32,000 nt of DNA from Crocosphaera subtropica ATCC 51142 (lineage in GTDB: Bacteria; Cyanobacteriota; Cyanobacteriia; Cyanobacteriales; Microcystaceae), in the NCBI RefSeq assembly GCF_000017845.1, contig NC_010546.1:180001-212000 (forward strand), written 5' to 3'. The notes under the pieces are model-generated. The model was not told the DNA's origin. It did no database searches and saw only the letters and a list, made by a program, of their open reading frames with translations. Shown here in pieces: positions 8,903 through 31,310 of the stretch. Numbering within the stretch: position 1 is the stretch's first letter; every line of letters begins with the position of its first letter. The position numbers and the translations under genes are program-made.

Positions 8903-10081
8903 TTACTTAGCAATGACTAATTGTGGCATCAAACGATTTAAAACTTGTTTTAACACCATTGCTGTCCAGTCAATATCTTCTCGGGTGGTATTCTGTCCCA
9001 AGGTTAACCGAATCCCTTTTATGGCTTCTTTTTCAGAGTAACCCATCGCTAATAGAATAGGACTGGGACTTAATTTACCACTATGACAAGCAGAACCAGC
9101 ACTAATGGCAATGCCGGCTAAGTTCATTTGACGAACGATCATTTTACCAGTAATTTTTTCTGTTTCACTGGTTTGAAAAGGATCGTTAATCACAAAACTA
9201 ACATGATGAGGAAGACGATATAATCTATCCCCTGTGGGAATCACATAAGGACAATCAGCCATTAAATCAAACAAGCGATCCCGTAATCCTATCAAGCGAG
9301 AACTTTCAGTTGCCATTTCTCTTACTGCTAATTCGGCCGCCAGTCCAAATCCGCCAATAATCCCTACTGATTGGGTTCCTGAGCGTTTTTTTCCTTCTTG
9401 GCCGCCTCCCAAGAGTAAGGGATCGATGTCTACCCCTGGACGTACATATAATGCCCCTGCCCCTTGAATTCCGTAGATTTTATGTGAGGAAATAGATAAT
9501 AAGTCAATGGGAAGCCGTTGCACATCAATGGACAGTCTACCTGCGCTTTGCACTGCGTCAGTATGGAAGAGAATGGCATGATCGTGAGCAATGTTGCTTA
9601 ATTCTTCAATCGGTTGTACCGTTCCTATTTCGCTTTGGCCATAAATAATGGAAATCAGCACTGTATTAGATTGAATAGCAGCTTTTAAGTCCCAAGGATT
9701 AATTCTGCCTTGACCATTGACAGCTAAACGAGTGACTTCCCATCCTTGTGCTTCTAAACAAGCCACTGGTTCACTAATAGCCGGATGTTCGATACTAGAA
9801 ATAATTAAATGTTGGGGTGTACTATACTGTCTAGCGATTCCTAAAATAGCCAAGTTGTCTGCTTCTGTTCCCCCTGACGTAAAAATAATTGACTCAGGTT
9901 CCCTAGCATTGACAAGGGAGGCAACTTGTACCCTGGCAGTTTCTATGACCATGGCAGCCCGTTGTCCCCATTGATGCAGACTAGAAGGGTTACCCCATTC
10001 CTCTGTCAAAAGTTGACTAACATAAGCAACTACCTCTGAACGAGGGGGAGTTGTAGCACTATGATCTAAATAAATTTGCAT
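8903..10081 (-). CDS. Cysteine desulfurase, NifS/IscS-like (class V aminotransferase fold)
   Basis: The N-terminus IYLDHSATTP is typical. The PLP-lysine motif is SISSHKIYG, the active-site loop is SAGSACHSG, and the length is 392 aa. Confidence 0.85.
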   Translation of the reverse strand: MQIYLDHSATTPPRSEVVAYVSQLLTEEWGNPSSLHQWGQRAAMVIETARVQVASLVNAREPESIIFTSGGTEADNLAILGIARQYSTPQHLIISSIEHPAISEPVACLEAQGWEVTRLAVNGQGRINPWDLKAAIQSNTVLISIIYGQSEIGTVQPIEELSNIAHDHAILFHTDAVQSAGRLSIDVQRLPIDLLSISSHKIYGIQGAGALYVRPGVDIDPLLLGGGQEGKKRSGTQSVGIIGGFGLAAELAVREMATESSRLIGLRDRLFDLMADCPYVIPTGDRLYRLPHHVSFVINDPFQTSETEKITGKMIVRQMNLAGIAISAGSACHSGKLSPSPILLAMGYSEKEAIKGIRLTLGQNTTREDIDWTAMVLKQVLNRLMPQLVIAK

Positions 10082-10170
10082 TATGATATAAAAAGAACGT
10101 TCTGGTCAGGAAGTAGCTAATCTTAGGCAACAAGTGGACAAGATAAAAATAGATAATCTAGTAGTCTATT

Positions 10171-10551
10171 TTATTGGCCTGGCTTACATACATTATAATC
10201 TTCATGGGAAACAACCGCTTCTGGGGTTAAAAAACTGCCATGATCACGACAAATTAAGCGATAATGTCGAGTCACAGGAATGCTGATAATAAAGCGATCA
10301 TGCCTTAGTCGTTTTCCGTAGAAACTTCGGTAATCTTGCTGATTAGCTAGTCCTTTGAGAATTTCACGGGCTTTCAGAACAACATTTTTAGGAAAGGGTC
10401 TTAGATCAATGGGATCTTTATTGAAGGTTTCTTCCCAAGCATTTTTCTGTTGTTGCTTTCGTTCCCAGGCCGTTTGTTCTTGGGCGCAACGATGGCAAAT
10501 TTTACCATACCCTTTATGACCACAGGGAAAACTCTTTTTTCGTCTCGACAT
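10171..10551 (-). CDS. Hypothetical protein with an N-terminal CxH...CxxC zinc-ribbon-like motif and a tentative RelE/ParE-like C-terminal segment
   Basis: The 126-aa product starts MSRRKKSFPCGHKGYGKICHRCAQ. Next comes a Q/K/E-rich helix, then LKGLANQQDYRSFYGKRLRHDRFIISIPVTRHYRLICRD....VVSHEDY. The last part resembles the G.L...(D)YRLIY....V..HR.dY core of RelE/ParE toxins. This assignment is from memory only. Confidence 0.45.
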   Translation of the reverse strand: MSRRKKSFPCGHKGYGKICHRCAQEQTAWERKQQQKNAWEETFNKDPIDLRPFPKNVVLKAREILKGLANQQDYRSFYGKRLRHDRFIISIPVTRHYRLICRDHGSFLTPEAVVSHEDYNVCKPGQ

Positions 10552-13322: not shown

Positions 13323-13826
13323 ATGTTATTTAACAAATCATTTTTACCCTTAGTTACTCCTCTTTCTTTATTGTCATTGAGTCTTATTTCTAGTTTAGGT
13401 ATTCTCCATAGTCGCCCAACCCTAGCCACTGAAAAAGGGATTGAGAGAAATCAAGGAGAATTATTAGCACAAACTGTAAGCAGAAATAGGTTACCTAACG
13501 GTTCTTATTTATATGGCAGTTCCCCTCAACCTGATGAAATTGGACAAGAATATATGGTGTTTCAAGTCCATCAGGGAGAGGTCAAGGGGGCGGTTTATAT
13601 GCCACACTCAGAGTTTAGTTGTTTTACAGGAACTTTTGAGGGCAATCAAATGAGAATGTCTGTTATTGACCCTTATGATGGGACTCGTTATGATTACTCT
13701 GTTGCCTTGCAAGCTCCTTCTACGGTTGCCAGTAATGGTCAATGGTCTGATATTGGCTTAGAAGGTTACTATCGTCTTGATGATATGAGTCGTAATGATC
13801 AAAAAATTCTTGACACTTGTTCATAA
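13323..13826 (+). CDS. Hypothetical secreted protein
   Basis: The 167-aa ORF has a clear hydrophobic signal peptide (FLPLVTPLSLLSLSLISSLGIL). No family was recognised. Confidence 0.5.
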   Translation: MLFNKSFLPLVTPLSLLSLSLISSLGILHSRPTLATEKGIERNQGELLAQTVSRNRLPNGSYLYGSSPQPDEIGQEYMVFQVHQGEVKGAVYMPHSEFSCFTGTFEGNQMRMSVIDPYDGTRYDYSVALQAPSTVASNGQWSDIGLEGYYRLDDMSRNDQKILDTCS

Positions 13827-18420: not shown

Positions 18421-19395
18421 ATGGATATTAAAGAAGGCTTTGTTGGCACTGTTGGTAATACACCCCTTATTCGACTTAAAAGCTTTAGTGAAGAAACAGG
18501 CTGTAATATTTTAGGCAAGGCAGAATTTTTGAATCCTGGGGGTTCAGTCAAAGATCGGGCTGCTTTATACATTATCAAAGACGCAGAAGAAAAAGGACTG
18601 CTCAAACCTGGGGGAACGGTAGTAGAAGGAACTGCTGGCAATACAGGCATAGGATTGGCCCATATTTGTAATGCTAAGGGTTATAAATGCCTGATTATTA
18701 TCCCAGAAACCCAGTCTCAAGAAAAAATTGACCTGTTGAGAACGTTGGGGGCTGAAGTTCGCACCGTTCCTGCGGTTCCTTACAAAGATCCCAATAATTA
18801 TGTCAAAGTCTCAGGAAGAGTTGCCGAAGAATTAGACAATGCTATCTGGGCCAATCAATTTGATAATTTAGCGAACCGACAGGCCCACTATGAAACTACT
18901 GGGCCCGAAATTTGGCAGCAAACAGATGGGAAGGTGGATGCTTGGGTATCGGCCACCGGAACCGGCGGAACCTACGCTGGTGGAGCGTTATTTTTTAAGG
19001 AAAAAAACCCTAATATTAAATGTATTGTGGCTGATCCCATGGGAAGTGGCTTATACAGTTACGTCAAAACTGGAGAAATTAACCCCAAAGGAAGTTCCAT
19101 CACTGAAGGGATTGGTAATAGTCGTATTACGGCCAATATGGAAGGGGTTCCCATTGATGATGCCATTCAAATTGACGACCATGAGGCATTAAGGGTTATT
19201 TATCAGTTACTGTACCAAGATGGCTTATTTATGGGGGGATCGGTCGGCATTAATGTAGGTGCGGCCGTGACCTTAGCTAAAGAAATGGGACCTGGCCATA
19301 CTATTGTCACGGTTTTATGTGATGGTGGGGCCCGTTATCAGTCTCGTATCTATGATAAGGAATGGTTAGCGTCTAAGGGGTTATCCGTTCCCTAG
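18421..19395 (+). CDS. cysK: Cysteine synthase (O-acetylserine sulfhydrylase) family, PLP-dependent
   Basis: The motifs are VGNTPLIRL, the PLP-lysine motif KAEFLNPGGSVKDRAA, the Asn-loop TAGNTGIGLA and GTGGT. I cannot separate CysK from CysM or a CBS-like paralogue by eye. Confidence 0.78.
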   Translation: MDIKEGFVGTVGNTPLIRLKSFSEETGCNILGKAEFLNPGGSVKDRAALYIIKDAEEKGLLKPGGTVVEGTAGNTGIGLAHICNAKGYKCLIIIPETQSQEKIDLLRTLGAEVRTVPAVPYKDPNNYVKVSGRVAEELDNAIWANQFDNLANRQAHYETTGPEIWQQTDGKVDAWVSATGTGGTYAGGALFFKEKNPNIKCIVADPMGSGLYSYVKTGEINPKGSSITEGIGNSRITANMEGVPIDDAIQIDDHEALRVIYQLLYQDGLFMGGSVGINVGAAVTLAKEMGPGHTIVTVLCDGGARYQSRIYDKEWLASKGLSVP

Positions 19396-19452: not shown

Positions 19453-19480
19453 GTCCCTCCTAGTAGGGGGGACTTTGTTT
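19453..19480 (+). terminator. Intrinsic terminator after cysK
   Basis: An 8-bp stem pairs GTCCCTCC (19453-19460) with GGGGGGAC (19466-19473), including one G-U pair, around the loop TAGTA. It is followed by TTTGTTT and starts 58 nt after the cysK stop. Confidence 0.6.
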
Positions 19481-19909
19481 GTAGTAAAATGGGCAAGTCA
19501 TGGGCAGTACATTAATTTGGATCATGTCTCGTTTTCCTTAATTCGAGATAAGCTCAAAGGTTAATAAAATCGTTGCCTAAAACACCCATTATTTCGTTTC
19601 ATATGCTCTAATCTGACCTCCGAACTCAGGTTAAGTAACATTTTTCACAGTAAAAATTGGATAAATAAGATTCTAATACCTGTCTCAAATTTTAACTGAG
19701 TTCGCTACTGTCAATATCCCTATCAAACATAATAATTCTTAATTTTCGGTAAATACCTACCCTTCTATAATAATATTGCGTTAAACTAATAGAAATCTGG
19801 GAAATCACCTACTTTTGCTGATGTTCATCTATCAATACTTATGATAATTATTCGTGTAATCACTGAGTTACTTTAATCTTTGTGACACCCACATTTTAAA
19901 CTAAAACCT

Positions 19910-20632
19910 ATGACTGAAAATCAACAGCAAAAAAATTTAAGTTATTATTGTGAAAGTTTTACTAATCTGAACGTTCGGACTAAATATCAACATTTCGAGT
20001 TTAAGCCTGGTGTTAAAAAAGAATTGATAACTATTAATGAGTCTATTGCAAAGTTAAAACAAGCAGTTGAATATGTTTTATTAGATCAAGAATTATTTCA
20101 ATTTCTTAAAGACCCAGAAAGTAGAAAAGAATTAATCGACACTTTAATTAATGTTTGGTTTTCTTCTGCTCAGAAAGAATTACAAGAAATTTTAGACATT
20201 AATCAATCATTTGAAGAAGCAGGAAATGAAGAAGTAGAAGAAACAGAAACCACCAAAAAATTTTATATGAGAAAGTCTTTATTAAGGGATTCTTTTTTTC
20301 GTAAGGCAGTTATTCATGCCTATGACTATCGTTGCTCATTATGCCAACTAAGAGTAATTAAATCATTATCCCAAAGTATTGTAGATGGGGCGCATATTAA
20401 ACCGTTTGCACAGTTTTATGACAACAAGATAGATAACGGTATTTCATTATGTAAAAATCATCATTGGGCTTTTGATAAAGGGATTTTTAGTATTGATGAT
20501 AATTATCAAGTTCTGATTTCTGATAATTTCTCTGAAGACTCATCCAATATGAAACCTATTAGGGACTTTCAAGGTGAAACTATTTTATTACCAAACTCAC
20601 AAACATATTTTCCGAGTTTAGAAGCAATTTAA
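19910..20632 (+). CDS. HNH endonuclease (HNH_2/restriction-type beta-beta-alpha-Me finger) with an uncharacterised ~125-aa N-terminal domain
   Basis: The C-terminal region reads YDYRCSLCQL....VDGAHIKPF......NGISLCKNHHWAFDKGIFSID. This gives a Cys pair, the catalytic DGAH histidine, and the Asn and HH of the HNH motif. The gene ends 62 bp upstream of dndC on the same strand. Confidence 0.75.
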   Translation: MTENQQQKNLSYYCESFTNLNVRTKYQHFEFKPGVKKELITINESIAKLKQAVEYVLLDQELFQFLKDPESRKELIDTLINVWFSSAQKELQEILDINQSFEEAGNEEVEETETTKKFYMRKSLLRDSFFRKAVIHAYDYRCSLCQLRVIKSLSQSIVDGAHIKPFAQFYDNKIDNGISLCKNHHWAFDKGIFSIDDNYQVLISDNFSEDSSNMKPIRDFQGETILLPNSQTYFPSLEAI

Positions 20633-20694
20633 TGGCATCGTCAAAACATTTTTAGATAATAGTTATTTAAGATTTTGAGAGGAGATGAACAAAC

Positions 20695-22275
20695 ATGACC
20701 AATATTCAAACCACATTATTTCCACCCCGTACTGTTCCAGAACTCATTAAAGATATAAAAAGATTAACCGAAGAGATACAAGAATTATATTGCGCTGATA
20801 ATATACCCCTTGTTATTGGCTATTCAGGGGGTAAAGATAGTAGTGCTATTGTACAGTTAATTTGGAATGCTATTTCAGAACTACCGTTAGAAAAAAGACA
20901 TAAAAAAATCTATGTTATTACCACTGATACGTTAGTAGAAAACCCTTTCGTTTCTGCATGGGTTAATAAGTCTATCGAAAGGATGAAAAAACAGGCTAAA
21001 GAAGAACAGTTACCTATTGAACCTCATTTGCTGACCCCAGAAGTTTCACAAACTTATTGGACTGGTTTAATAGGTAAAGGATATCCTGCCCCTCGTCATA
21101 CCTTTCGTTGGTGTACACCTCGTTTAAAAATTGATCCATCTAACCGTTTTATTCGTAATGTTGTTAGAGCAAATAATGAGGCTATTGTAGTTTTAGGAAC
21201 TCGTAAAACAGAAAGCCAAAACCGTGAAGCGATCATGACAAAACGAGAACAGGGAAGAGTACGTGATCGCCTTTGTAAACATCCTCATTTACCCAGTTCT
21301 TTGTTATACACTCCCATCGAAGACTGGCGAACCGATGAAGTCTGGTTATATTTAATGCAATGGGAAAACCCTTGGGGACATAGTAATAAAGATTTATTTG
21401 CTATGTATCGAGGGGCAACTGCTGATAATGAATGTCCTTTAGTCATTGATACTTCTACCCCCAGTTGTGGAAGTTCTCGCTTCGGTTGTTGGGTGTGTAC
21501 CCTAGTTGACAGCGATAAGTCTTTAGCAGCAATGATCCAAAATGATGAAGAAAAAGAATGGTTACAACCCTTGATAGATGTTCGTAAGGAGTTAGATATA
21601 CAAAATGATCGAGAGAAAAGAGACTTTAGACGTATTTGGGGGACTGTTCATCTTTTTGAACGTAATATTGATGGTCAGACTTCCATTGAACCGGTACCAG
21701 GTCCCTATACAAAATATTGGCGAGAACATTGGTTAAGACTAGTATTAGAAGCGCAAGTTAAAGTGAAAAAAAATGCACCAGACGATATGAAAGATATTAC
21801 CTTAATTACCCAAGAAGAACTTAGCGAAATAAGACGAATATGGTTAGAAGAAAAACACGAATTTGATGATAGTTTACCTCGCATTTATGAAGAAGTCACA
21901 GGGGAACCGTTTATTGATAGCCGTCCAGGAGTGGGTCATAGTTTACTAGGTAGCGATGAATGGGACATTTTATCAGAGGTGTGTGGAGAGGATACAATGC
22001 ACTTAGAATTGATGGCCAGACTATTAGATACCGAAAGACAATTTTATACTAAGTCTCGTCGTGTCGGTATCTATGGTGACTTAGAAAAATGCTTTGAAAC
22101 CAGTTCCCGTTCTCAAAATGATGCTATTGATAATGCACACCAAAAACGCAACCTAAAAAATGCGATCGCAAAAGAAGATATTAATCAAGTTAAAAGAGAA
22201 CTCAAGAAAACATTAAACCCCGAAGACAGACAACCCCAACAACAATTATCCTGGGGAAAAATTAAATTTGGTTAA
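20695..22275 (+). CDS. dndC: DNA phosphorothioation sulfurtransferase DndC (PAPS-reductase/PP-loop ATPase family)
   Basis: The PP-loop is VIGYSGGKDSS, followed by TDTLVENP, GYPAPRHTFRWCTPRLKIDP and LGTRKTESQNR. The Fe-S cysteine cluster is ECPLVIDTSTPSCGSSRFGCWVCT, followed by DREKRDFRR and VPGPYT. At 526 aa the match to the DndC family as I remember it is close. A GAGGAG motif lies ~12 nt upstream of the ATG. Confidence 0.9.
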   Translation: MTNIQTTLFPPRTVPELIKDIKRLTEEIQELYCADNIPLVIGYSGGKDSSAIVQLIWNAISELPLEKRHKKIYVITTDTLVENPFVSAWVNKSIERMKKQAKEEQLPIEPHLLTPEVSQTYWTGLIGKGYPAPRHTFRWCTPRLKIDPSNRFIRNVVRANNEAIVVLGTRKTESQNREAIMTKREQGRVRDRLCKHPHLPSSLLYTPIEDWRTDEVWLYLMQWENPWGHSNKDLFAMYRGATADNECPLVIDTSTPSCGSSRFGCWVCTLVDSDKSLAAMIQNDEEKEWLQPLIDVRKELDIQNDREKRDFRRIWGTVHLFERNIDGQTSIEPVPGPYTKYWREHWLRLVLEAQVKVKKNAPDDMKDITLITQEELSEIRRIWLEEKHEFDDSLPRIYEEVTGEPFIDSRPGVGHSLLGSDEWDILSEVCGEDTMHLELMARLLDTERQFYTKSRRVGIYGDLEKCFETSSRSQNDAIDNAHQKRNLKNAIAKEDINQVKRELKKTLNPEDRQPQQQLSWGKIKFG

Positions 22276-22431
22276 CCTAAAGATAACACAGAAAACGAGA
22301 ACAATCTATGATAAATTATGCCTTAAATCTTGATATTGTGGGTAAACGGACAGACGAAACCTTTTATCCACTCTGTCGTAGTTTAATAGCATTATAAAAA
22401 TAATAAATAACTTTATTTCTTTACTTAACTT

Positions 22432-24435
22432 ATGTTGTTTACTGAATTAGTCCTACAAAACTTTGGTCCTTATGCTGGTAAAAACATTATTAATCTACAC
22501 ACGGAAAAAAATAAGGAAACTCGTCCTATTATCCTTATTGGAGGAATGAATGGAGGAGGAAAAACAACCCTTATGGATGCCATTCGTCTCGCATTATACG
22601 GGCAACGGGCCCAATGTTCAACTCGGAATAACCTCAGTTACAGCGACTTTTTAATTCAAGCAATTAATAACCAAACTCCATTAGGAGACGAAACCAGAAT
22701 AGAATTAGCATTTGAACATTTTATTGATGATCAATGGAAGCAATTACGCATTGTTAGACGCTGGAATAAACAACTAAAAGATGGCAAAGATAGCTTGGGT
22801 ATTTTAGAAACAGGTGGGCCCAATAACTATGACTGGCCCGATAAAGCATTAACAGATACCTGGGATGAATTTATCGAAACTGTGTTACCTTTAGGCATTT
22901 CTAACTTATTTTTATTCGATGGGGAACAGGTTAAAGAATTAGCAGAACAAGATATCCCACCCACTAGCGTTATTGAAGCAATACAGTCTTTACTTGGATT
23001 AGAATTAGTTGAAAGATTAGCCGTAGATTTAGACGTTTTGGTGAACCGTAAACAGAAAAAACTAGCGAGTCAATCTCAACTCAAAACCATAGAAGATATT
23101 GAAGATAAATTAAACCATTATAAGCAAGAAAAAGAAAATGCAGTAGAAGATTTTACTTCTATTAGTAACCAACTTAAATGCGCTAATAAAAAAGTACAAG
23201 AAGCATCTGAACGCTTTAGAATAGAAGGGGGGAAAATAGCCTCAGAAAGTAGTACCCTCAAAAAAAACATTAATGAGTTAAAAGAGAAATTACAACAGCA
23301 ACGCAATGAACTGGTAAACTTAGCAGCAACCAGTTTACCTTTAGCTTTAATTACTCCCTTACTCACCGAAGCAAAAAAACAAGGTGAAATAGAAATTAAA
23401 CAACAACAAGCTATCCTAACTAAAACTGTCTTACAACAACGAGATCAAAAGTTACTTGATTATTTAGAAAGCTTAGAACTCACTCAAGAAAAATTGCACA
23501 AAATTGAAACATTTTTATCACGAGAATATGAAAGCATTGATCAAGATTCTAAAATGAACCTTAATTATACTATAGGAATAACAGAAGAGGATTTAAACCA
23601 ACTTAATACATTATTAGACTATAAATTACCATCCCAACTTAATACTGCTAAACAACAACTCGATACCTTACAAAAATTAGAAGTTGACTTAGATAACAAT
23701 GAGAGAAAGTTACAAGTTGCTGCATCTCCAGAAGACTATCAAAAACTTAGTGATGCACTCACCAATGCACAAAAAGAAGCTGCTAAGTATCAAAGCGAAT
23801 ATAACCTCGCAGAAAAACGTATTAGAGAAGCAGAGAAAGCAGTACAAATGACTATCAAAGACTTGAAAAGTTATACCGATGAAGCATTAGAAAAACAAAA
23901 TAACGAACACATTATTAAATCGGCAGCTAAAGTCCAAACTACGCTAAAATTATTTAAAGAACGATTAACCCTAAAAAAACTCAATAAACTAGAAGGGGAA
24001 GTTACCGAATGTTTCCGTTATTTACTTCATAAATCTGATCTTGTTCATCGAGTAGCTATTGATACCTATAATTTTAGTTTATCTCTTTATGATCCTCAAG
24101 GGGAAACCGTCCCTAAACATCGTTTATCCGCAGGAGAAAAACAACTTTTATCCATCGCATTTTTGTGGGGGTTAGCAAGGGTTTCCGGTCGCAACTTACC
24201 CATCGCTATTGATACCCCGTTAGGTAGACTTGACTCTTCTCATCGGAATAACCTAGTTGAACGTTATTTTCCCACCGCTTCCCATCAAGTTATCTTACTG
24301 TCTACGGATACGGAAATACGACAAGAGGAGTTCCAGCAACTCACGGAACAAGATGCGATCGCTCATACTTATCTACTAGAATATGATACCAGTGACCGTC
24401 AAACTACCGTTCACTGCGATCGCTATTTTTGGTAA
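22432..24435 (+). CDS. dndD: DNA sulfur modification protein DndD (SMC/ABC-like ATPase)
   Basis: The N-terminus is MLFTELVLQNFGPYAG... with Walker A GGMNGGGKTTLMDAIRLALYG, followed by LFLFDGEQVKELA. A ~350-aa coiled-coil lies in the middle. The ABC signature is RLSAGEKQLLSIAF and the Walker B/D-loop is PIAIDTPLGRLD. The length is 667 aa. Confidence 0.88.
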   Translation: MLFTELVLQNFGPYAGKNIINLHTEKNKETRPIILIGGMNGGGKTTLMDAIRLALYGQRAQCSTRNNLSYSDFLIQAINNQTPLGDETRIELAFEHFIDDQWKQLRIVRRWNKQLKDGKDSLGILETGGPNNYDWPDKALTDTWDEFIETVLPLGISNLFLFDGEQVKELAEQDIPPTSVIEAIQSLLGLELVERLAVDLDVLVNRKQKKLASQSQLKTIEDIEDKLNHYKQEKENAVEDFTSISNQLKCANKKVQEASERFRIEGGKIASESSTLKKNINELKEKLQQQRNELVNLAATSLPLALITPLLTEAKKQGEIEIKQQQAILTKTVLQQRDQKLLDYLESLELTQEKLHKIETFLSREYESIDQDSKMNLNYTIGITEEDLNQLNTLLDYKLPSQLNTAKQQLDTLQKLEVDLDNNERKLQVAASPEDYQKLSDALTNAQKEAAKYQSEYNLAEKRIREAEKAVQMTIKDLKSYTDEALEKQNNEHIIKSAAKVQTTLKLFKERLTLKKLNKLEGEVTECFRYLLHKSDLVHRVAIDTYNFSLSLYDPQGETVPKHRLSAGEKQLLSIAFLWGLARVSGRNLPIAIDTPLGRLDSSHRNNLVERYFPTASHQVILLSTDTEIRQEEFQQLTEQDAIAHTYLLEYDTSDRQTTVHCDRYFW

Positions 24436-24485
24436 TTCTTTTTTGATTAAATCTTGAAAAAAATCGAAAATTCTTGCTTAAAACC

Positions 24486-24524
24486 TTGCCAAAGCTTTCA
24501 CTTAATGATAATTTATGTTAGAAT
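24486..24524 (+). promoter_or_regulatory. Sigma70-like promoter candidate inside the dndD-dndE spacer
   Basis: An extended -10 TGtTAGAAT (24516-24524) has TTCACT 16 nt upstream (24497-24502). An alternative pairing is TTGCCA (24486-24491), a 17-nt spacer and TAATTT (24509-14). The site lies ~240 nt upstream of the dndE ATG. This is sequence pattern only. Confidence 0.3.
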
Positions 24525-24765
24525 ACTTTGTGCAAACAATTATAAAATTTTGTCTTAATATTTCCATCTTTAAACTCACATTTTTAATCTTTACACAAAT
24601 TTCGTCCAAAAGCAACTCCCTCTTTTTTAACATTCCCAATCTTGGGGTGGATTAGACGGCTATAATTAAGGTAATCACAGTAACCCACTATCTTAATCAG
24701 GTGAGCAAAATCAACAAAAAATAGAAAAGTCAAAATAATTATCAAATTAGTCCACTCTAGATGGA

Positions 24766-25155
24766 ATGATTATGGAATCACCGATCAAACAAATACGGTT
24801 ATCCCAAACTGCAAAAGACCAACTAATTAAACTGAAAAGATATACCAAAATAGAACAGTGGAATATTTTATGTCGATGGGGGTTTTGTCGTTCGTTAGCT
24901 GAACCGAGTATTCCCTCTCCTGTCCCCATTATCCTCGATAGTAACGTAGAAATGACTTGGAGAGTGTTCGGGGGAAATATGGCCGATTTATTATTAATTG
25001 CTTTAAAGCAACGCTGTTATAAAGATGGTTTAGGAACTGATAAAGAGACCTTAATCACTCAATTTAGATTACATTTACACCGAGGAATTGGCTATTTAGC
25101 AGGAGATATGAATATCAAAAAAATTGAACATTTAATTGAATTAACTACAAAATAA
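24766..25155 (+). CDS. dndE: DNA sulfur modification protein DndE
   Basis: The small protein (129 aa, or 127 aa from the ATG at 24772) has the DndE-like N-terminal pattern IRLSQTAKDQLIKLKRYTKIEQWNILCRWGFCRSL. It sits downstream of dndC-dndD. An in-frame TAG at 24748-24750 prevents a longer N-terminus. Confidence 0.75.
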   Translation: MIMESPIKQIRLSQTAKDQLIKLKRYTKIEQWNILCRWGFCRSLAEPSIPSPVPIILDSNVEMTWRVFGGNMADLLLIALKQRCYKDGLGTDKETLITQFRLHLHRGIGYLAGDMNIKKIEHLIELTTK

Positions 25156-30914: not shown

Positions 30915-31310
30915 ATGTCACCAGAAGCAAAACCCCCCACAGTAAACCAAACAAGTCTTGAACAAACTCTTCCTATTCCCCCTGAGCAACAAATGCCAGT
31001 GTCTAGCCCTCAAGCTCTGAAACAACGCTTAGAATGGGGTGAACCTGCGTTAACGATTCTCGATGCTCGTGATAATGAATCATTTTTAGAAGAACATATT
31101 ACAGGGGCAATGCTACTGGAATTTGTCGAAGATAGTCTTTCTTCTATGTCTGATGATCGGGATATTTATGTTTATGCAGACGGAGAAGAAAATGCGAAAC
31201 AAGCAGCCGAAAAATTGCGAAATAAAGGTTTTAACCGTGTTTCTCGCATTGAAGGCGGTTTAGCAAACTGGAAAAGCATTGCCGGGCCGACAGAAGGGAG
31301 AGCAGCATAA
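30915..31310 (+). CDS. Rhodanese-homology domain protein lacking the catalytic cysteine
   Basis: The rhodanese pattern is ILDARDNESFLEEHITGAM .... IYVYADGEENAKQAAEKLRNKGFNRVSRIEGGLANW. The 131-aa translation contains no cysteine at all. The active-site loop position reads ADGEENA instead of CxxGxR. Confidence 0.7.
   Translation: MSPEAKPPTVNQTSLEQTLPIPPEQQMPVSSPQALKQRLEWGEPALTILDARDNESFLEEHITGAMLLEFVEDSLSSMSDDRDIYVYADGEENAKQAAEKLRNKGFNRVSRIEGGLANWKSIAGPTEGRAA

What the first reader, a model, noticed from the sequence alone, without database searches (positions are those of the whole stretch)
19910..25155. HNH nuclease gene in the dndB position of a minimal dndC-dndD-dndE phosphorothioation cluster with no dndA, dndB or dndFGH
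Four co-directional genes form the only clearly accessory block in the window.

Seen directly in the sequence:
- DndC has the PP-loop GYSGGKDSS and the cysteine cluster CPLV..PSCGSSRFGCWVCT.
- DndD has Walker A GGMNGGGKTT, a long coiled-coil, the signature LSAGEKQ and the D-loop IAIDTPLGRLD.
- DndE is small and begins IRLSQTAKDQLIKLKRYT...NILCRWGF.
- A 240-aa HNH protein (DGAHIKPF...NGISLCKNHHWAFD) ends 62 bp upstream of dndC.

Established knowledge: in the characterised loci (Streptomyces lividans, Salmonella enterica Cerro 87, E. coli B7A), dndBCDE form the modification operon, with dndA or iscS supplying sulfur. Restriction is provided by dndFGH or pbeABCD. DndB is a DGQHR-type regulator encoded directly upstream of dndC.

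In this window no DndB-, DndA-, DndF/G/H- or Pbe-like ORF exists anywhere in the 32 kb, and a nuclease occupies the dndB slot.

Inference: the HNH protein may be the effector arm of a compact phosphorothioate (PT)-based self/non-self system, cutting DNA that lacks PT. Alternatively it may be a nicking accessory of the modification machine. I do not recognise this four-gene combination as a described system, but I cannot verify novelty without a literature and database search.
Basis: partly seen in the sequence, partly recalled or inferred. Interest (0 to 1): 0.8.

Follow-up and report, generated by a model that had tools for sequence, protein, structure and literature searches.

The report
Decayed sulfur-sensing nuclease beside intact dndCDE
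The "HNH nuclease in the dndB slot" is a broken copy of a phosphorothioate-binding SBD-HNH nuclease that heads the DNA-sulfur-modification (dnd) operon in about 60% of the cyanobacterial loci sampled; here that nuclease gene and the neighbouring dndB gene have both decayed, while dndC, dndD and dndE remain intact.

Summary
The four ORFs and all quoted motifs are present at the stated coordinates. DndC, DndD and DndE pass their curated models.

The 240-aa HNH protein is not a new partner replacing DndB. It is a damaged copy of a 307-339 aa cyanobacterial SBD-HNH protein of the ScoMcrA/SprMcrA/EcoWI type, which binds phosphorothioate (PT). Two lesions are present:
- a 183-bp in-frame deletion that removes the core of the sulfur-binding domain;
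- a CAA-to-TAA nonsense codon that removes an invariant W-H-R tail.

A stub of a divergent dndB-family gene survives at 19473-19730 (minus strand), so "no dndB" is wrong.

In 78 of 78 evaluable species, intact SBD-HNH genes lie 2.5 kb or less upstream of dndC. About 60% of cyanobacterial dndC loci carry the nuclease. *Crocosphaera watsonii* shows a parallel, independent decay of the nuclease and dndB.

However, the nuclease is a PT reader, its link to dnd loci has been partly noted in print (Lutz 2020; Rakesh 2024), and this copy is most likely non-functional. The locus is best read as an orphan PT-modification module.

The parts
19453..19473 (+). Terminator-like hairpin downstream of cysK. 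It marks the left breakpoint of the deletion that removed most of the dndB block.
   Evidence: One search found the hairpin followed by a T-run. Homology to the relatives' dndB gene starts at 19473.
19473..19730 (-). Pseudogene stub of the divergent DGQHR/DndB-family gene. It covers about the first 61 codons and carries a nonsense codon at codon 13, an insertion of about 92 bp (19540-19631) and a frameshift.
   Evidence: tblastn with the 401-aa DndB-family protein of C. chwakensis (L005) gives E = 5.7e-13. The DNA is 88-93% identical to L005 and L019.
19731..19909 (.). Conserved divergent intergenic and promoter region between the dndB stub and the HNH gene.
   Evidence: Window 19632-19991 aligns to L005 9722-10082 at 88% identity.
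19910..20632 (+). Damaged SBD-HNH gene (240 aa). All HNH catalytic and zinc-binding residues are kept. The sulfur-binding-domain core and the C-terminal tail are lost.
   Evidence: The AlphaFold model of this product has pLDDT below 50 over most of residues 1-56. The same region scores 79-93 in the intact relative.
19989..19992 (+). Junction of the 183-bp (61-codon) in-frame deletion. It removes the equivalents of ScoMcrA P118 to W175, including the Y164-P165 sulfur pocket.
   Evidence: L005 bases 10083-10263 have no counterpart in the window. The junction lies between the imperfect repeats AAATATCAAC and AAATTATAC.
20630..20659 (+). Premature TAA (20630-20632, replacing ancestral CAA/Gln), followed in frame by the ancestral tail WHRQNIFR and the original stop at 20657-20659.
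   Evidence: W and H of the tail are invariant in 80 of 80 species, and R is present in 77 of 80.
20695..22275 (+). dndC, intact (PP-loop ATP pyrophosphatase / sulfurtransferase).
   Evidence: TIGR03183 scores 686 bits with full-length coverage. dN/dS against C. chwakensis is 0.07.
22432..24435 (+). dndD, intact (SMC/ABC-type ATPase).
   Evidence: TIGR03185 scores 661 bits and covers positions 1-650 of 650. dN/dS is 0.16.
24766..25155 (+). dndE, intact.
   Evidence: TIGR03184 scores 134 bits and PF08870 scores 150 bits. dN/dS is 0.03.
8903..10081 (-). NifS/IscS-type cysteine desulfurase. It is a candidate trans-acting sulfur donor and is not part of the cluster.
   Evidence: PF00266. It falls below the NCBIfam NifS, IscS and DndA cut-offs. 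It matches the PADLOC DndA and SspA models over their full length, at about 406 bits.

Best explanation
The block is a cyanobacterial dnd phosphorothioation locus, from a Crocosphaera-like organism, caught in partial decay.

Ancestral layout. Close relatives have divergent DGQHR/DndB-family gene(s), then an SBD-HNH gene, then dndC, dndD and dndE. The SBD-HNH protein has an N-terminal sulfur-binding winged-helix domain that reads PT in DNA and a C-terminal HNH nuclease.

State in this genome. The modification core dndCDE is intact. It most likely still writes PT, using a housekeeping cysteine desulfurase, and so behaves as an orphan modification module (inferred).

Both accessory genes are disabled (shown):
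- dndB is reduced to a 258-bp stub.
- The SBD-HNH gene has lost 61 codons covering the sulfur pocket and the hydrophobic core of the SBD.
- The SBD-HNH gene also carries a nonsense codon that removes an invariant W-H-R tail.

The leftover 240-aa product cannot read PT. It is probably inactive, or at most a weak non-specific nickase (inferred).

Function in intact relatives (inferred). The nuclease is never found without dndC, whereas dndC is often found without the nuclease. This is the asymmetry expected if the nuclease depends on the host's own PT marks, as a PT-sensing effector or guard arm would. It is not expected of a stand-alone enzyme that attacks PT DNA.
For: Lesions:
- The homologues are 307-339 aa and have the SBD-HNH architecture.
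- The alignment shows the 61-aa gap and the missing tail.
- The DNA after the stop still encodes WHRQNIFR.
- Breakpoints are mapped against L005 and L019.
- Four independent assemblies agree with the window.

SBD identity:
- PDB 8H0L (SBD bound to PT-DNA) matches at E = 3.6e-17.
- Foldseek gives target-normalised TM 0.80-0.83.
- NF045808 aligns end to end.
- The precomputed Pfam domain is PF26340, DNA-SBD_ScoMcrA.

Residue conservation in 80 species:
- P165-equivalent 80/80; Y164-equivalent 79/80; Lys at the R117 position 79/80.
- HNH and zinc-binding residues 80/80; tail W-H 80/80.

Linkage:
- 78 of 78 evaluable loci have dndC downstream, and all 80 HNH ORFs are intact.
- In the reverse survey, 38 of 62 fully evaluable dndC loci have the nuclease.
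- Rippkaea PCC 8801 has dndB and dndCDE with no trace of the nuclease.

Parallel decay: in C. watsonii-type L099 the HNH gene is frameshifted, DndB is truncated to residues 1-280 of 401, and two DGQHR genes are missing. Crocosphaera relatives with intact HNH keep every DGQHR gene their contigs cover.

dndCDE integrity.
Against: - dN/dS of the HNH remnant is 0.18. The intact pair L005/L019 gives 0.195, so no relaxation of constraint is visible. The lesions may be very recent, or the remnant may still be selected.
- The deletion is in frame. The start codon, upstream region and all HNH catalytic and zinc-binding residues are retained, so residual nuclease activity cannot be excluded.
- PT has not been measured in this or any related strain.
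- The roles assigned to the intact SBD-HNH and DGQHR proteins rest on gene-neighbourhood logic, not experiment.
- The one probably related enzyme that has been assayed, Mae9806I, showed weak PT-stimulated cleavage, not PT-inhibited cleavage (PMC7461809).
- Co-decay of dndB and HNH rests on two Crocosphaera lineages only.
Confidence: 0.85

Rival explanations
1. One reading: in this window the HNH protein is the working effector arm of a compact four-gene system and cuts DNA that lacks PT.
For: - The gene is co-directional with dndC and 62 nt upstream of it.
- All HNH catalytic and zinc-binding residues are intact.
- dN/dS is 0.18.
- The family is tightly linked to dndC.
Against: - The only module that could sense PT has lost its pocket and hydrophobic core.
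- An invariant tail is removed by a nonsense codon.
- All 80 species representatives and 29 of the 31 metagenomic copies not cut by a contig end are full length, so this form is an outlier.
- Without a sensor there is no evident way to spare self DNA.
Confidence: 0.07
2. The truncated protein has a new function as a PT-independent nickase, for example helping DndCDE gain access to DNA. Engineered SprMcrA-S, which lacks 87 N-terminal SBD residues, is a comparable non-specific nickase.
For: - Lutz et al. 2020 (PMC7461809) showed that truncating the SBD converts SprMcrA into a non-specific nicking enzyme.
- The window allele is in frame, keeps its start codon and catalytic residues, and shows no excess of non-synonymous change.
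Against: - The additional nonsense mutation removes a W-H-R tail that is invariant or nearly so in 80 species.
- The AlphaFold model of the product is poor: mean pLDDT 55.6 against 74.2 for the intact relative.
- dndCDE loci work without any such gene in many bacteria, and the nuclease is absent from about 40% of cyanobacterial dndC loci.
- An unregulated nickase would be expected to be toxic.
Confidence: 0.08
3. This rival concerns the intact family. The SBD-HNH is an ordinary type IV PT-dependent restriction enzyme aimed at foreign DNA whose PT sequence context differs from the host's. It is merely co-located with dnd in a defence island. The copy here was inactivated because it caused autoimmunity, for example after loss of dndB raised PT levels.
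For: - All characterised SBD-HNH enzymes bind PT DNA and cut near it (PMC6224610, PMC7461809).
- The sulfur pocket is conserved in the cyanobacterial family.
- Lutz et al. proposed differing specificities to explain dnd-adjacent cases.
- DndB represses dndCDE (PMC4507180), and here and in C. watsonii the nuclease and dndB are damaged together.
Against: - A nuclease that does not need host PT should often occur without dnd. In this clade 0 of 78 evaluable loci lack dndC.
- The nuclease stays joined to dndC, with a 5-nt gap, even where dndD-dndE have moved elsewhere.
- HNH and DndC have been co-inherited.
- Only the 80 best of at least 562 relatives were examined.
Confidence: 0.25
4. The adjacency of the HNH gene and dndC is accidental.
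For: None beyond the single window.
Against: 78 of 78 evaluable loci across about 25 genera and three different gene layouts keep the linkage. The Mantel test gave 0 of 999 permutations reaching the observed correlation.
Confidence: 0.01

Closest known systems
SBD-HNH PT-dependent restriction endonucleases (SprMcrA, EcoWI, Mae9806I; NCBIfam NF045808)
   Same: - The intact relatives have the same two-domain architecture.
- Their N-terminal domain matches solved SBDs (8H0L, 7CCD, 5ZMO) in sequence and predicted fold.
- The sulfur-pocket residues are conserved, and the HNH has a Cys/His zinc site.
- Mae9806I is probably from Microcystis. This is inferred from its REBASE-style name and accession WP_004160581.1, and was not verified.
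   Different: - Scores are below the NF045808 cut-off: 118-127 bits for intact relatives and 88.5 for the window, against 180.
- This clade is obligately linked to dndC, whereas under 3.6% of SBD-HNH homologues overall lie near dnd (PMC7461809).
- The window copy lacks the SBD core and the C-terminal tail.
wHTH(SBD)+SAD(SRA)+HNH nucleases encoded in Dnd modification loci (Rakesh, Aravind and Krishnan 2024, PMC10853773)
   Same: - A PT-binding winged-helix domain is fused to an HNH nuclease and embedded in dnd modification neighbourhoods.
- These loci mostly lack DndFGH.
- The authors proposed the nuclease as an alternative restriction component.
   Different: - The cyanobacterial proteins have no SAD/SRA domain. 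Pfam finds only HNH_2, and the linker of about 60 aa has no room for one.
- They lie upstream of dndC rather than downstream of the modification genes.
- Cyanobacteria are not mentioned in that paper's main text.
ScoMcrA (SBD-SRA-HNH type IV enzyme of Streptomyces coelicolor)
   Same: It shares the SBD fold and the sulfur-pocket logic: H116/R117 and Y164/P165 correspond to Y/K and Y/P here.
   Different: ScoMcrA has an extra head domain and an SRA domain, lives in a dnd-negative host, and is lethal when combined with dnd (PMC3009677).
PT-sensing effectors DndI, SspE and DndFGH
   Same: Functional analogy only. These are nucleases or nickases encoded with PT writers that use a hydrophobic pocket to sense self PT and avoid autoimmunity (PMC11662687, PMC9646914).
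   Different: All of them couple PT sensing to an NTPase or translocase. The SBD-HNH proteins have no NTPase domain. There is no sequence relationship.
Canonical dndBCDE with trans-acting IscS (Salmonella Cerro 87, E. coli B7A), and solitary dndBCDE clusters
   Same: - dndC-dndD-dndE order and orientation.
- No dedicated dndA.
- A DGQHR/DndB-family gene upstream in relatives.
- Absence of dndFGH, as already reported for Cyanobacteria (PMC8569181).
   Different: Here dndB is divergent and degenerate. Relatives carry one to three DGQHR paralogues, none of which reaches the DndB equivalog cut-off, plus the nuclease gene.
SprMcrA-S (engineered N-terminal truncation of SprMcrA)
   Same: It is an HNH module with a crippled SBD, and became a PT-independent, non-specific nickase (PMC7461809).
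   Different: The window allele arose naturally, has an internal rather than terminal deletion, and also lacks the conserved C-terminal tail.

Membership tests
Dnd phosphorothioate modification module (DndCDE) | DndC equivalog (TIGR03183) with PP-loop and Cys cluster | tested here: met
   686 bits against a cut-off of 290, with full-length coverage. SGGKDS and CPLV...CGSSRFGCWVC are present in the translation.
Dnd phosphorothioate modification module (DndCDE) | DndD equivalog (TIGR03185) with Walker A, ABC signature and D-loop | tested here: met
   661 bits against 246, covering positions 1-650 of 650. The motifs are in the translation.
Dnd phosphorothioate modification module (DndCDE) | DndE (TIGR03184 / PF08870) | tested here: met
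   134 bits against 72, and 150 bits against 25.
Dnd phosphorothioate modification module (DndCDE) | Dedicated DndA cysteine desulfurase (TIGR03235) | tested here: not met
   The only class-V aminotransferase (8903-10081, minus strand) scores 312 against a cut-off of 480. It is generic NifS/IscS-like, although PADLOC's DndA model matches it over the full length.
Dnd phosphorothioate modification module (DndCDE) | Intact DndB / DGQHR regulator | tested here: not met
   Only a stub of about 61 codons, with a stop, an insertion and a frameshift, remains at 19473-19730 on the minus strand.
Dnd phosphorothioate modification module (DndCDE) | PT actually present in genomic DNA | not testable with these tools
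   Needs iodine or Tris-peracid cleavage, or LC-MS/MS of PT dinucleotides.
DndFGH / PbeABCD restriction modules | DndF, DndG, DndH or PbeA, PbeB, PbeD proteins in the neighbourhood | tested here: not met
   No such hits among the window's other ORFs of 90 aa or more (Pfam; PADLOC, ten ORFs). The 'PbeC' PADLOC hit is to DndD itself.
SBD-HNH PT-dependent restriction endonucleases (NF045808; SprMcrA / EcoWI type) | N-terminal sulfur-binding domain with pocket residues (H/Y, R/K ... Y-P) | tested here: not met
   In the window protein the equivalents of P118 to W175 are deleted. Intact relatives meet the feature: 8H0L at E = 3.6e-17, TM 0.80-0.83, and the pocket proline conserved in 80 of 80.
SBD-HNH PT-dependent restriction endonucleases (NF045808; SprMcrA / EcoWI type) | C-terminal HNH catalytic core with Cys/His zinc site | tested here: met
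   PF13391 at E = 2e-10. D159, H162, N176, C142, C145, C181, H184 and H185 are all retained.
SBD-HNH PT-dependent restriction endonucleases (NF045808; SprMcrA / EcoWI type) | Curated NCBIfam score cut-off (180 bits) | tested here: not met
   The window scores 88.5 bits over profile positions 135-271 only. Intact relatives score 118-127 bits end to end.
SBD-HNH PT-dependent restriction endonucleases (NF045808; SprMcrA / EcoWI type) | PT-dependent DNA binding and cleavage | not testable with these tools
   Needs EMSA and nuclease assays on PT-positive and PT-negative substrates.
wHTH+SAD+HNH nucleases of Dnd loci (Rakesh et al. 2024) | SAD/SRA domain between the wHTH(SBD) and HNH domains | tested here: not met
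   Pfam finds no SRA domain in the window protein or in P0001, P0003, P0025 or P0089. The model shows only a helical linker of about 60 aa.
wHTH+SAD+HNH nucleases of Dnd loci (Rakesh et al. 2024) | Encoded inside a Dnd modification gene neighbourhood | tested here: met
   78 of 78 evaluable loci. The gene is upstream of dndC, not downstream as that paper describes.
PT-sensing NTPase-nickase effectors (SspE, DndI) | NTPase domain whose activity is modulated by PT | tested here: not met
   No P-loop or NTPase family was detected in the window protein or intact relatives.

The most novel reading that the evidence does not exclude
The cyanobacterial SBD-HNH, possibly acting together with the DGQHR/DndB-family paralogues, is the missing restriction or guard arm of cyanobacterial Dnd systems. 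These systems have so far been described as lacking any PT restriction component (PMC8569181). Under this reading the protein is a single-polypeptide, NTPase-free PT sensor. SBD binding to self PT restrains or releases the HNH nuclease, and PT-free invading DNA is nicked. This would be a different mechanism from DndFGH, DndI, SspE and PbeABCD. Repeated loss of the nuclease together with dndB in Crocosphaera would then reflect the autoimmunity cost of such a system.
Probability: 0.3. Interest if true: 0.7.

Novelty: new member of a known kind. Interest (0 to 1): 0.4.

Why it matters
For this window the result is corrective. An apparently novel "HNH-dndCDE" system turns out to be a decaying copy of a known class, a PT-reader nuclease embedded in a dnd locus, and should not be reported as a new four-gene system.

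The survey made to reach that verdict has some value of its own:
- In Cyanobacteria, where PT restriction components were reported absent, a conserved and apparently active SBD-HNH nuclease is obligately linked to dndC. The linkage holds across about 25 genera and three gene layouts, and even where dndD-dndE have moved elsewhere.
- That sharpens a paradox noted only in passing in the literature: why does a nuclease from a family that cuts PT DNA live next to the enzymes that make PT?
- Natural knock-outs (this strain and C. watsonii) alongside intact close relatives (C. chwakensis, Crocosphaera MAGs) give a ready-made comparison for testing it.

Tried and rejected
- **dN/dS as a test for pseudogenisation.** The HNH value (0.18) is no higher than for an intact pair (0.195), so the test is uninformative. 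It only says the lesions are recent or the remnant is still constrained.
- **Rippkaea PCC 8801 small ORFs.** I tested whether the two small ORFs in the HNH slot are nuclease relics. There is no homology.
- **Placing Mae9806I (WP_004160581.1) in this family.** The accession is not among the cluster members listed, and the sequence is not in the held supplement text. The link remains an inference from its name.
- **Rakesh et al. supplement.** I searched it for cyanobacterial taxa, but the held file is too small and returned nothing.
- **Possible repeat at 19540-19631.** Three Logan contigs break there, so I looked for a second copy of the ~92-bp insertion. None exists in the window.
- **Promoter and terminator scan of the cluster.** Counts are not above shuffled controls. 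Only the cysK terminator-like hairpin was useful.
- **ORF-integrity script.** My first version used the first Met and mis-measured genes with alternative start codons. I replaced it with stop-to-stop and HSP-based scoring. Two loci that still listed as damaged (L116 and L142) I reclassified by hand as cut by a contig end.
- **PADLOC labels.** The "PbeC" best hit for DndD and the "MTase_II" hit for DndC are model-labelling artefacts, not evidence of Pbe or a methyltransferase.
- **AlphaFold on the 240-aa product.** The low confidence is consistent with loss of the SBD fold but is not decisive.

Full report
**1. The observation**

All quoted motifs are in the translations, and the gap between the HNH gene and dndC is 62 nt.

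Curated models confirm three of the genes:
- DndC: TIGR03183, 686 bits against a cut-off of 290.
- DndD: TIGR03185, 661 against 246.
- DndE: TIGR03184, 134 against 72; PF08870, 150 bits.

The first ORF carries an HNH_2 domain (PF13391, E = 2e-10). G+C falls to about 0.30 at the 5' end of the block. The flanking genes are housekeeping: cysK upstream, rpsD and rpsA downstream. None of the window's other ORFs of 90 aa or more is a DndF, DndG, DndH or Pbe protein; Pfam covered 20 of them and PADLOC covered ten.

**2. What the HNH gene really is**

Its best curated match is NCBIfam NF045808, "phosphorothioated DNA-binding restriction endonuclease". Only the C-terminal half of that model is matched, and the score is below the cut-off (88.5 against 180).

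A search of the protein universe found 413 relatives. Nearly all of the best 120 listed are 310-340 aa long and cyanobacterial, and many carry PF26340 (DNA-SBD_ScoMcrA) as well as HNH_2. Evidence that the intact relatives are two-domain SBD-HNH proteins:
- They align with NF045808 from end to end (118-127 bits).
- Residues 12-144 match the solved sulfur-binding domain SBDHga in complex with PT-DNA (PDB 8H0L, E = 3.6e-17).
- An AlphaFold model of the closest intact relative (P0001, Crocosphaera chwakensis, pLDDT 74) superposes on 8H0L with target-normalised TM 0.80-0.83. SprMcrA and ScoMcrA SBDs appear further down the list.
- Pfam finds no SRA domain and no NTPase domain.

The family therefore has the architecture of SprMcrA and EcoWI.

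**3. The window copy is damaged in two places**

The window protein is 91% identical to P0001 over aligned columns, starting from the first residue, but it differs in two ways.

*Internal deletion.* It lacks 61 residues between "...VRTKYQ" and "HFEFKP...".
- At the DNA level, 183 bp present in C. chwakensis (L005 10083-10263, allowing for a 2-nt overlap) are missing.
- The junction lies between the imperfect direct repeats AAATATCAAC and AAATTATAC.
- Mapped onto ScoMcrA (PMC6224610), the deletion removes the equivalents of P118 to W175. That is the floor and lid of the sulfur cavity (Y164, P165), A168, and most of the hydrophobic core.

*Nonsense codon.* The ORF ends at a TAA where relatives have CAA (Gln). 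The next nine codons still read WHRQNIFR-stop in frame.

Across 80 species representatives:
- the pocket proline is present in 80 of 80, the tyrosine in 79 of 80, and the lysine at the R117 position in 79 of 80;
- the HNH catalytic and zinc-binding residues are present in 80 of 80;
- W and H of the tail are present in 80 of 80;
- every ORF is full length (307-339 aa).

The window allele keeps the nuclease core but has lost both the sensor and the tail.

The lesions are not assembly errors, because four independently assembled read sets are 100% identical across them. An AlphaFold model of the 240-aa product is poor (mean pLDDT 55.6, below 50 over most of residues 1-56). That is consistent with loss of the SBD fold but not decisive.

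**4. dndB is not absent; it is a stub**

On the minus strand, 19730 to 19473 still encodes the first ~61 residues of the divergent 401-aa DGQHR/DndB-family protein of C. chwakensis (E = 5.7e-13). The stub has a nonsense codon at position 13, an insertion of about 92 bp and a frameshift. Homology ends at 19473, directly beside a terminator-like hairpin downstream of cysK.

In C. chwakensis and in a Crocosphaera MAG whose DndC is 95% identical to the window's, three DGQHR/DndB-family genes (401, 267 and 537 aa) lie upstream of an intact SBD-HNH-dndC-dndD-dndE array, followed in C. chwakensis by rpsD. The window is therefore a deletion derivative of that layout. The nuclease does not stand in for dndB.

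**5. Is the nuclease coupled to dnd?**

Yes, and the coupling is asymmetric.

*From the nuclease side.* I scanned one genome per species and kept the 80 best of at least 562 relatives. All were cyanobacterial and spanned about 25 genera. In 78 of the 80 loci dndC lies on the same strand, 2.5 kb or less downstream. The other two contigs end before dndC could appear. Three layouts occur:

| Layout | Approx. number of loci | Arrangement |
|---|---|---|
| Direct | 22 | HNH directly upstream of dndC, DGQHR genes further upstream where the contig reaches (Crocosphaera, Microcoleus, Planktothrix, Coleofasciculus) |
| Nostocales | 48 | a ~520-aa DGQHR gene on the opposite strand between HNH and dndC |
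| HNH-DndC pair only | 8 | no dndD, dndE or DGQHR gene in the flanks held (Microcystis, Hydrococcus, Spirulina) |

In the third layout the gap between HNH and dndC is 5 nt. In Microcystis and Hydrococcus a DndD-DndE pair was found on a different contig. HNH and DndC divergences correlate strongly (Spearman 0.83; 0 of 999 Mantel permutations reached this).

*From the DndC side.* Among the 80 metagenomic loci closest to the window's DndC:
- 38 have the nuclease upstream;
- 24 have at least 3.2 kb of upstream sequence and no nuclease;
- 15 have only 1.1-3.2 kb upstream and no nuclease;
- 3 are not evaluable.

Rippkaea orientalis PCC 8801 has DGQHR genes and dndCDE with no trace of the nuclease.

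So the nuclease is never seen without dndC, while dndC is often seen without the nuclease.

**6. Decay recurs, and takes dndB with it**

The C. watsonii-type locus (L099, 99.4% identical to the 168-aa WH8501 fragment P0068) has its SBD and HNH halves in different reading frames. Its 401-type DndB gene is truncated to residues 1-280, and the other two DGQHR genes are gone. Crocosphaera loci with an intact nuclease keep every DGQHR gene that their contigs cover. One further metagenomic locus (L110) retains only the last 48 codons of the nuclease.

The three loci whose DndC is most similar to the window's (95%) have intact nuclease genes, so the window's lesions are specific to its lineage.

The Crocosphaera branch, including the window, has Gln instead of Lys at the R117-equivalent position. 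The R117Q substitution weakened PT-DNA binding in ScoMcrA (PMC6224610). This suggests PT reading may already have been weakened in this branch, but that is inference.

dN/dS of the HNH remnant (0.18) is no higher than for an intact pair (0.195). dndC (0.07), dndD (0.16) and dndE (0.03) are clearly constrained. The lesions are therefore recent, or the remnant retains some function.

**7. How it most likely works**

Shown:
- dndCDE is intact.
- The nuclease has lost its sensor and its tail.
- dndB is a stub.
- A generic NifS/IscS-type cysteine desulfurase lies 10 kb away.

Inferred:
- The locus now acts as an orphan PT-modification module. Such solitary dnd clusters are known, and IscS can replace DndA (PMC4507180).
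- The 240-aa product cannot read PT. It is probably inactive, or at most a non-specific nickase like the engineered SprMcrA-S (PMC7461809).
- For the intact family, the asymmetry in section 5 is what restriction-modification logic predicts if the nuclease depends on the host's own PT marks. It is not what is expected of a free-standing enzyme that attacks PT DNA.
- The simplest mechanism is PT sensing through the SBD that restrains or releases the HNH nuclease on self DNA. This resembles SspE and DndI in outcome (PMC11662687) but works without an NTPase.

Against this, every SBD-HNH enzyme assayed so far cuts PT DNA. That includes Mae9806I, which is probably from Microcystis (weak activity, 2-4-fold preference for PT DNA; PMC7461809). 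The rival reading therefore keeps substantial weight: a type IV enzyme with a specificity different from the host's, inactivated here because loss of the DndB repressor raised PT levels.

**8. Comparison with what is known, and novelty**

- Jian et al. 2021 (PMC8569181) state that PT restriction components are absent from Cyanobacteria, and the paper does not mention HNH.
- Lutz et al. 2020 counted 72 of 279 first-round Mae9806I homologues as dnd-adjacent "outliers". They suggested inactive partners or differing specificities as explanations.
- Rakesh et al. 2024 (PMC10853773) reported wHTH(=SBD)+SAD+HNH genes in Dnd loci of 698 taxa, 197 of which have DndFGH, and proposed them as alternative restriction components.

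The general association is therefore published. The cyanobacterial form differs in having no SRA domain, lying upstream of dndC, and staying with dndC in split loci. I found no explicit description of this form.

The window itself is a degenerate member of this known kind. I rate it "new member of a known kind", interest 0.4.

**9. Limits**

- No PT chemistry or enzymology is available for any of these strains.
- Only the best 80 loci of each survey were examined.
- Species are phylogenetically related, so the 78 of 78 figure is not 78 independent events. The three layouts and the split loci do show that linkage survived rearrangement.
- The co-decay of dndB and the nuclease rests on two lineages.

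Noticed in passing
window 8903-10081 (-), 18421-19395 (+), 30915-31310 (+): Three sulfur-metabolism genes lie around the dnd locus. One is a NifS/IscS-type cysteine desulfurase that matches PADLOC's DndA and SspA models over their full length (about 406 bits) but falls below the NCBIfam DndA, NifS and IscS cut-offs. The second is cysteine synthase A, directly abutting the locus. The third is a rhodanese-domain protein. They could supply sulfur in trans, or the arrangement could be coincidence.
   Followed up: partly
L007-L010, L014-L018, L020 (Microcystis); L022 and L095 (Hydrococcus); L023 (Spirulina); L094: These are split dnd loci. The SBD-HNH gene stays joined to a DndC gene (5-nt gap), with no dndD, dndE or DGQHR gene in the flanks held. 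In Microcystis and Hydrococcus a DndD-DndE pair sits on a different contig. When the cluster breaks, the nuclease stays with DndC, not with DndD-DndE.
   Followed up: partly
L024-L090 (Nostocales loci), e.g. L039 10964-12529 (-): In about 48 Nostocales species a DGQHR-domain gene of about 520 aa sits on the opposite strand between the SBD-HNH gene and dndC. The spacing between dndD and dndE in these loci varies from about 40 bp to more than 1 kb.
   Followed up: no
L099 4008-5965 (C. watsonii-type contig Ga0064013_1010): This is an independent decay of the same accessory genes. The SBD and HNH halves are in different reading frames (this corresponds to the 168-aa WH8501 fragment). DndB is truncated to residues 1-280 of 401, and the two other DGQHR genes are absent. 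dndC, dndD and dndE are still present.
   Followed up: yes
L110 2225-2368: Only the last 48 codons of the SBD-HNH gene remain upstream of dndC in this metagenomic contig. The 537-aa-type DGQHR gene upstream is intact.
   Followed up: partly
window 19985-19990 (codons Y26-Q27); P0001, P0003, P0004: The Crocosphaera branch has Gln where 79 of 80 species have Lys, at the position equivalent to ScoMcrA R117. That residue makes the electrostatic contact with the sulfur, and R117Q weakened binding in ScoMcrA. C. chwakensis also has Ala where all 80 others have His (the A168-equivalent).
   Followed up: partly
window 22432-24435 (DndD): PADLOC's best model for this DndD is labelled 'PbeC' (993 bits, against 788 for the best DndD model), and DndC also hits a model labelled 'MTase_II'. 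Automated defence-system callers could mislabel this locus. Rakesh et al. 2024 argue that PbeABCD is a DndD/DndE-like CxC-ATPase system.
   Followed up: partly
window 19540-19631: An insertion of about 92 bp lies inside the dndB stub. Three independent short-read assemblies break at exactly 19569 within it, which suggests a dispersed repeat elsewhere in the genome. There is no second copy inside the window.
   Followed up: partly
window 10171-10551 (-): A small protein combines a zinc-binding DUF7682 domain with a ParE-like toxin domain. No partner antitoxin was identified.
   Followed up: no
L096 5046-5778 (Rippkaea orientalis PCC 8801): Two small unannotated ORFs (111 aa on the minus strand, 127 aa on the plus strand) occupy the position between the DGQHR genes and dndC where other cyanobacteria have the SBD-HNH gene. 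They show no homology to it.
   Followed up: partly
window 13323-13826 (+): A 167-aa ORF has no match in Pfam, NCBIfam or PADLOC.
   Followed up: no
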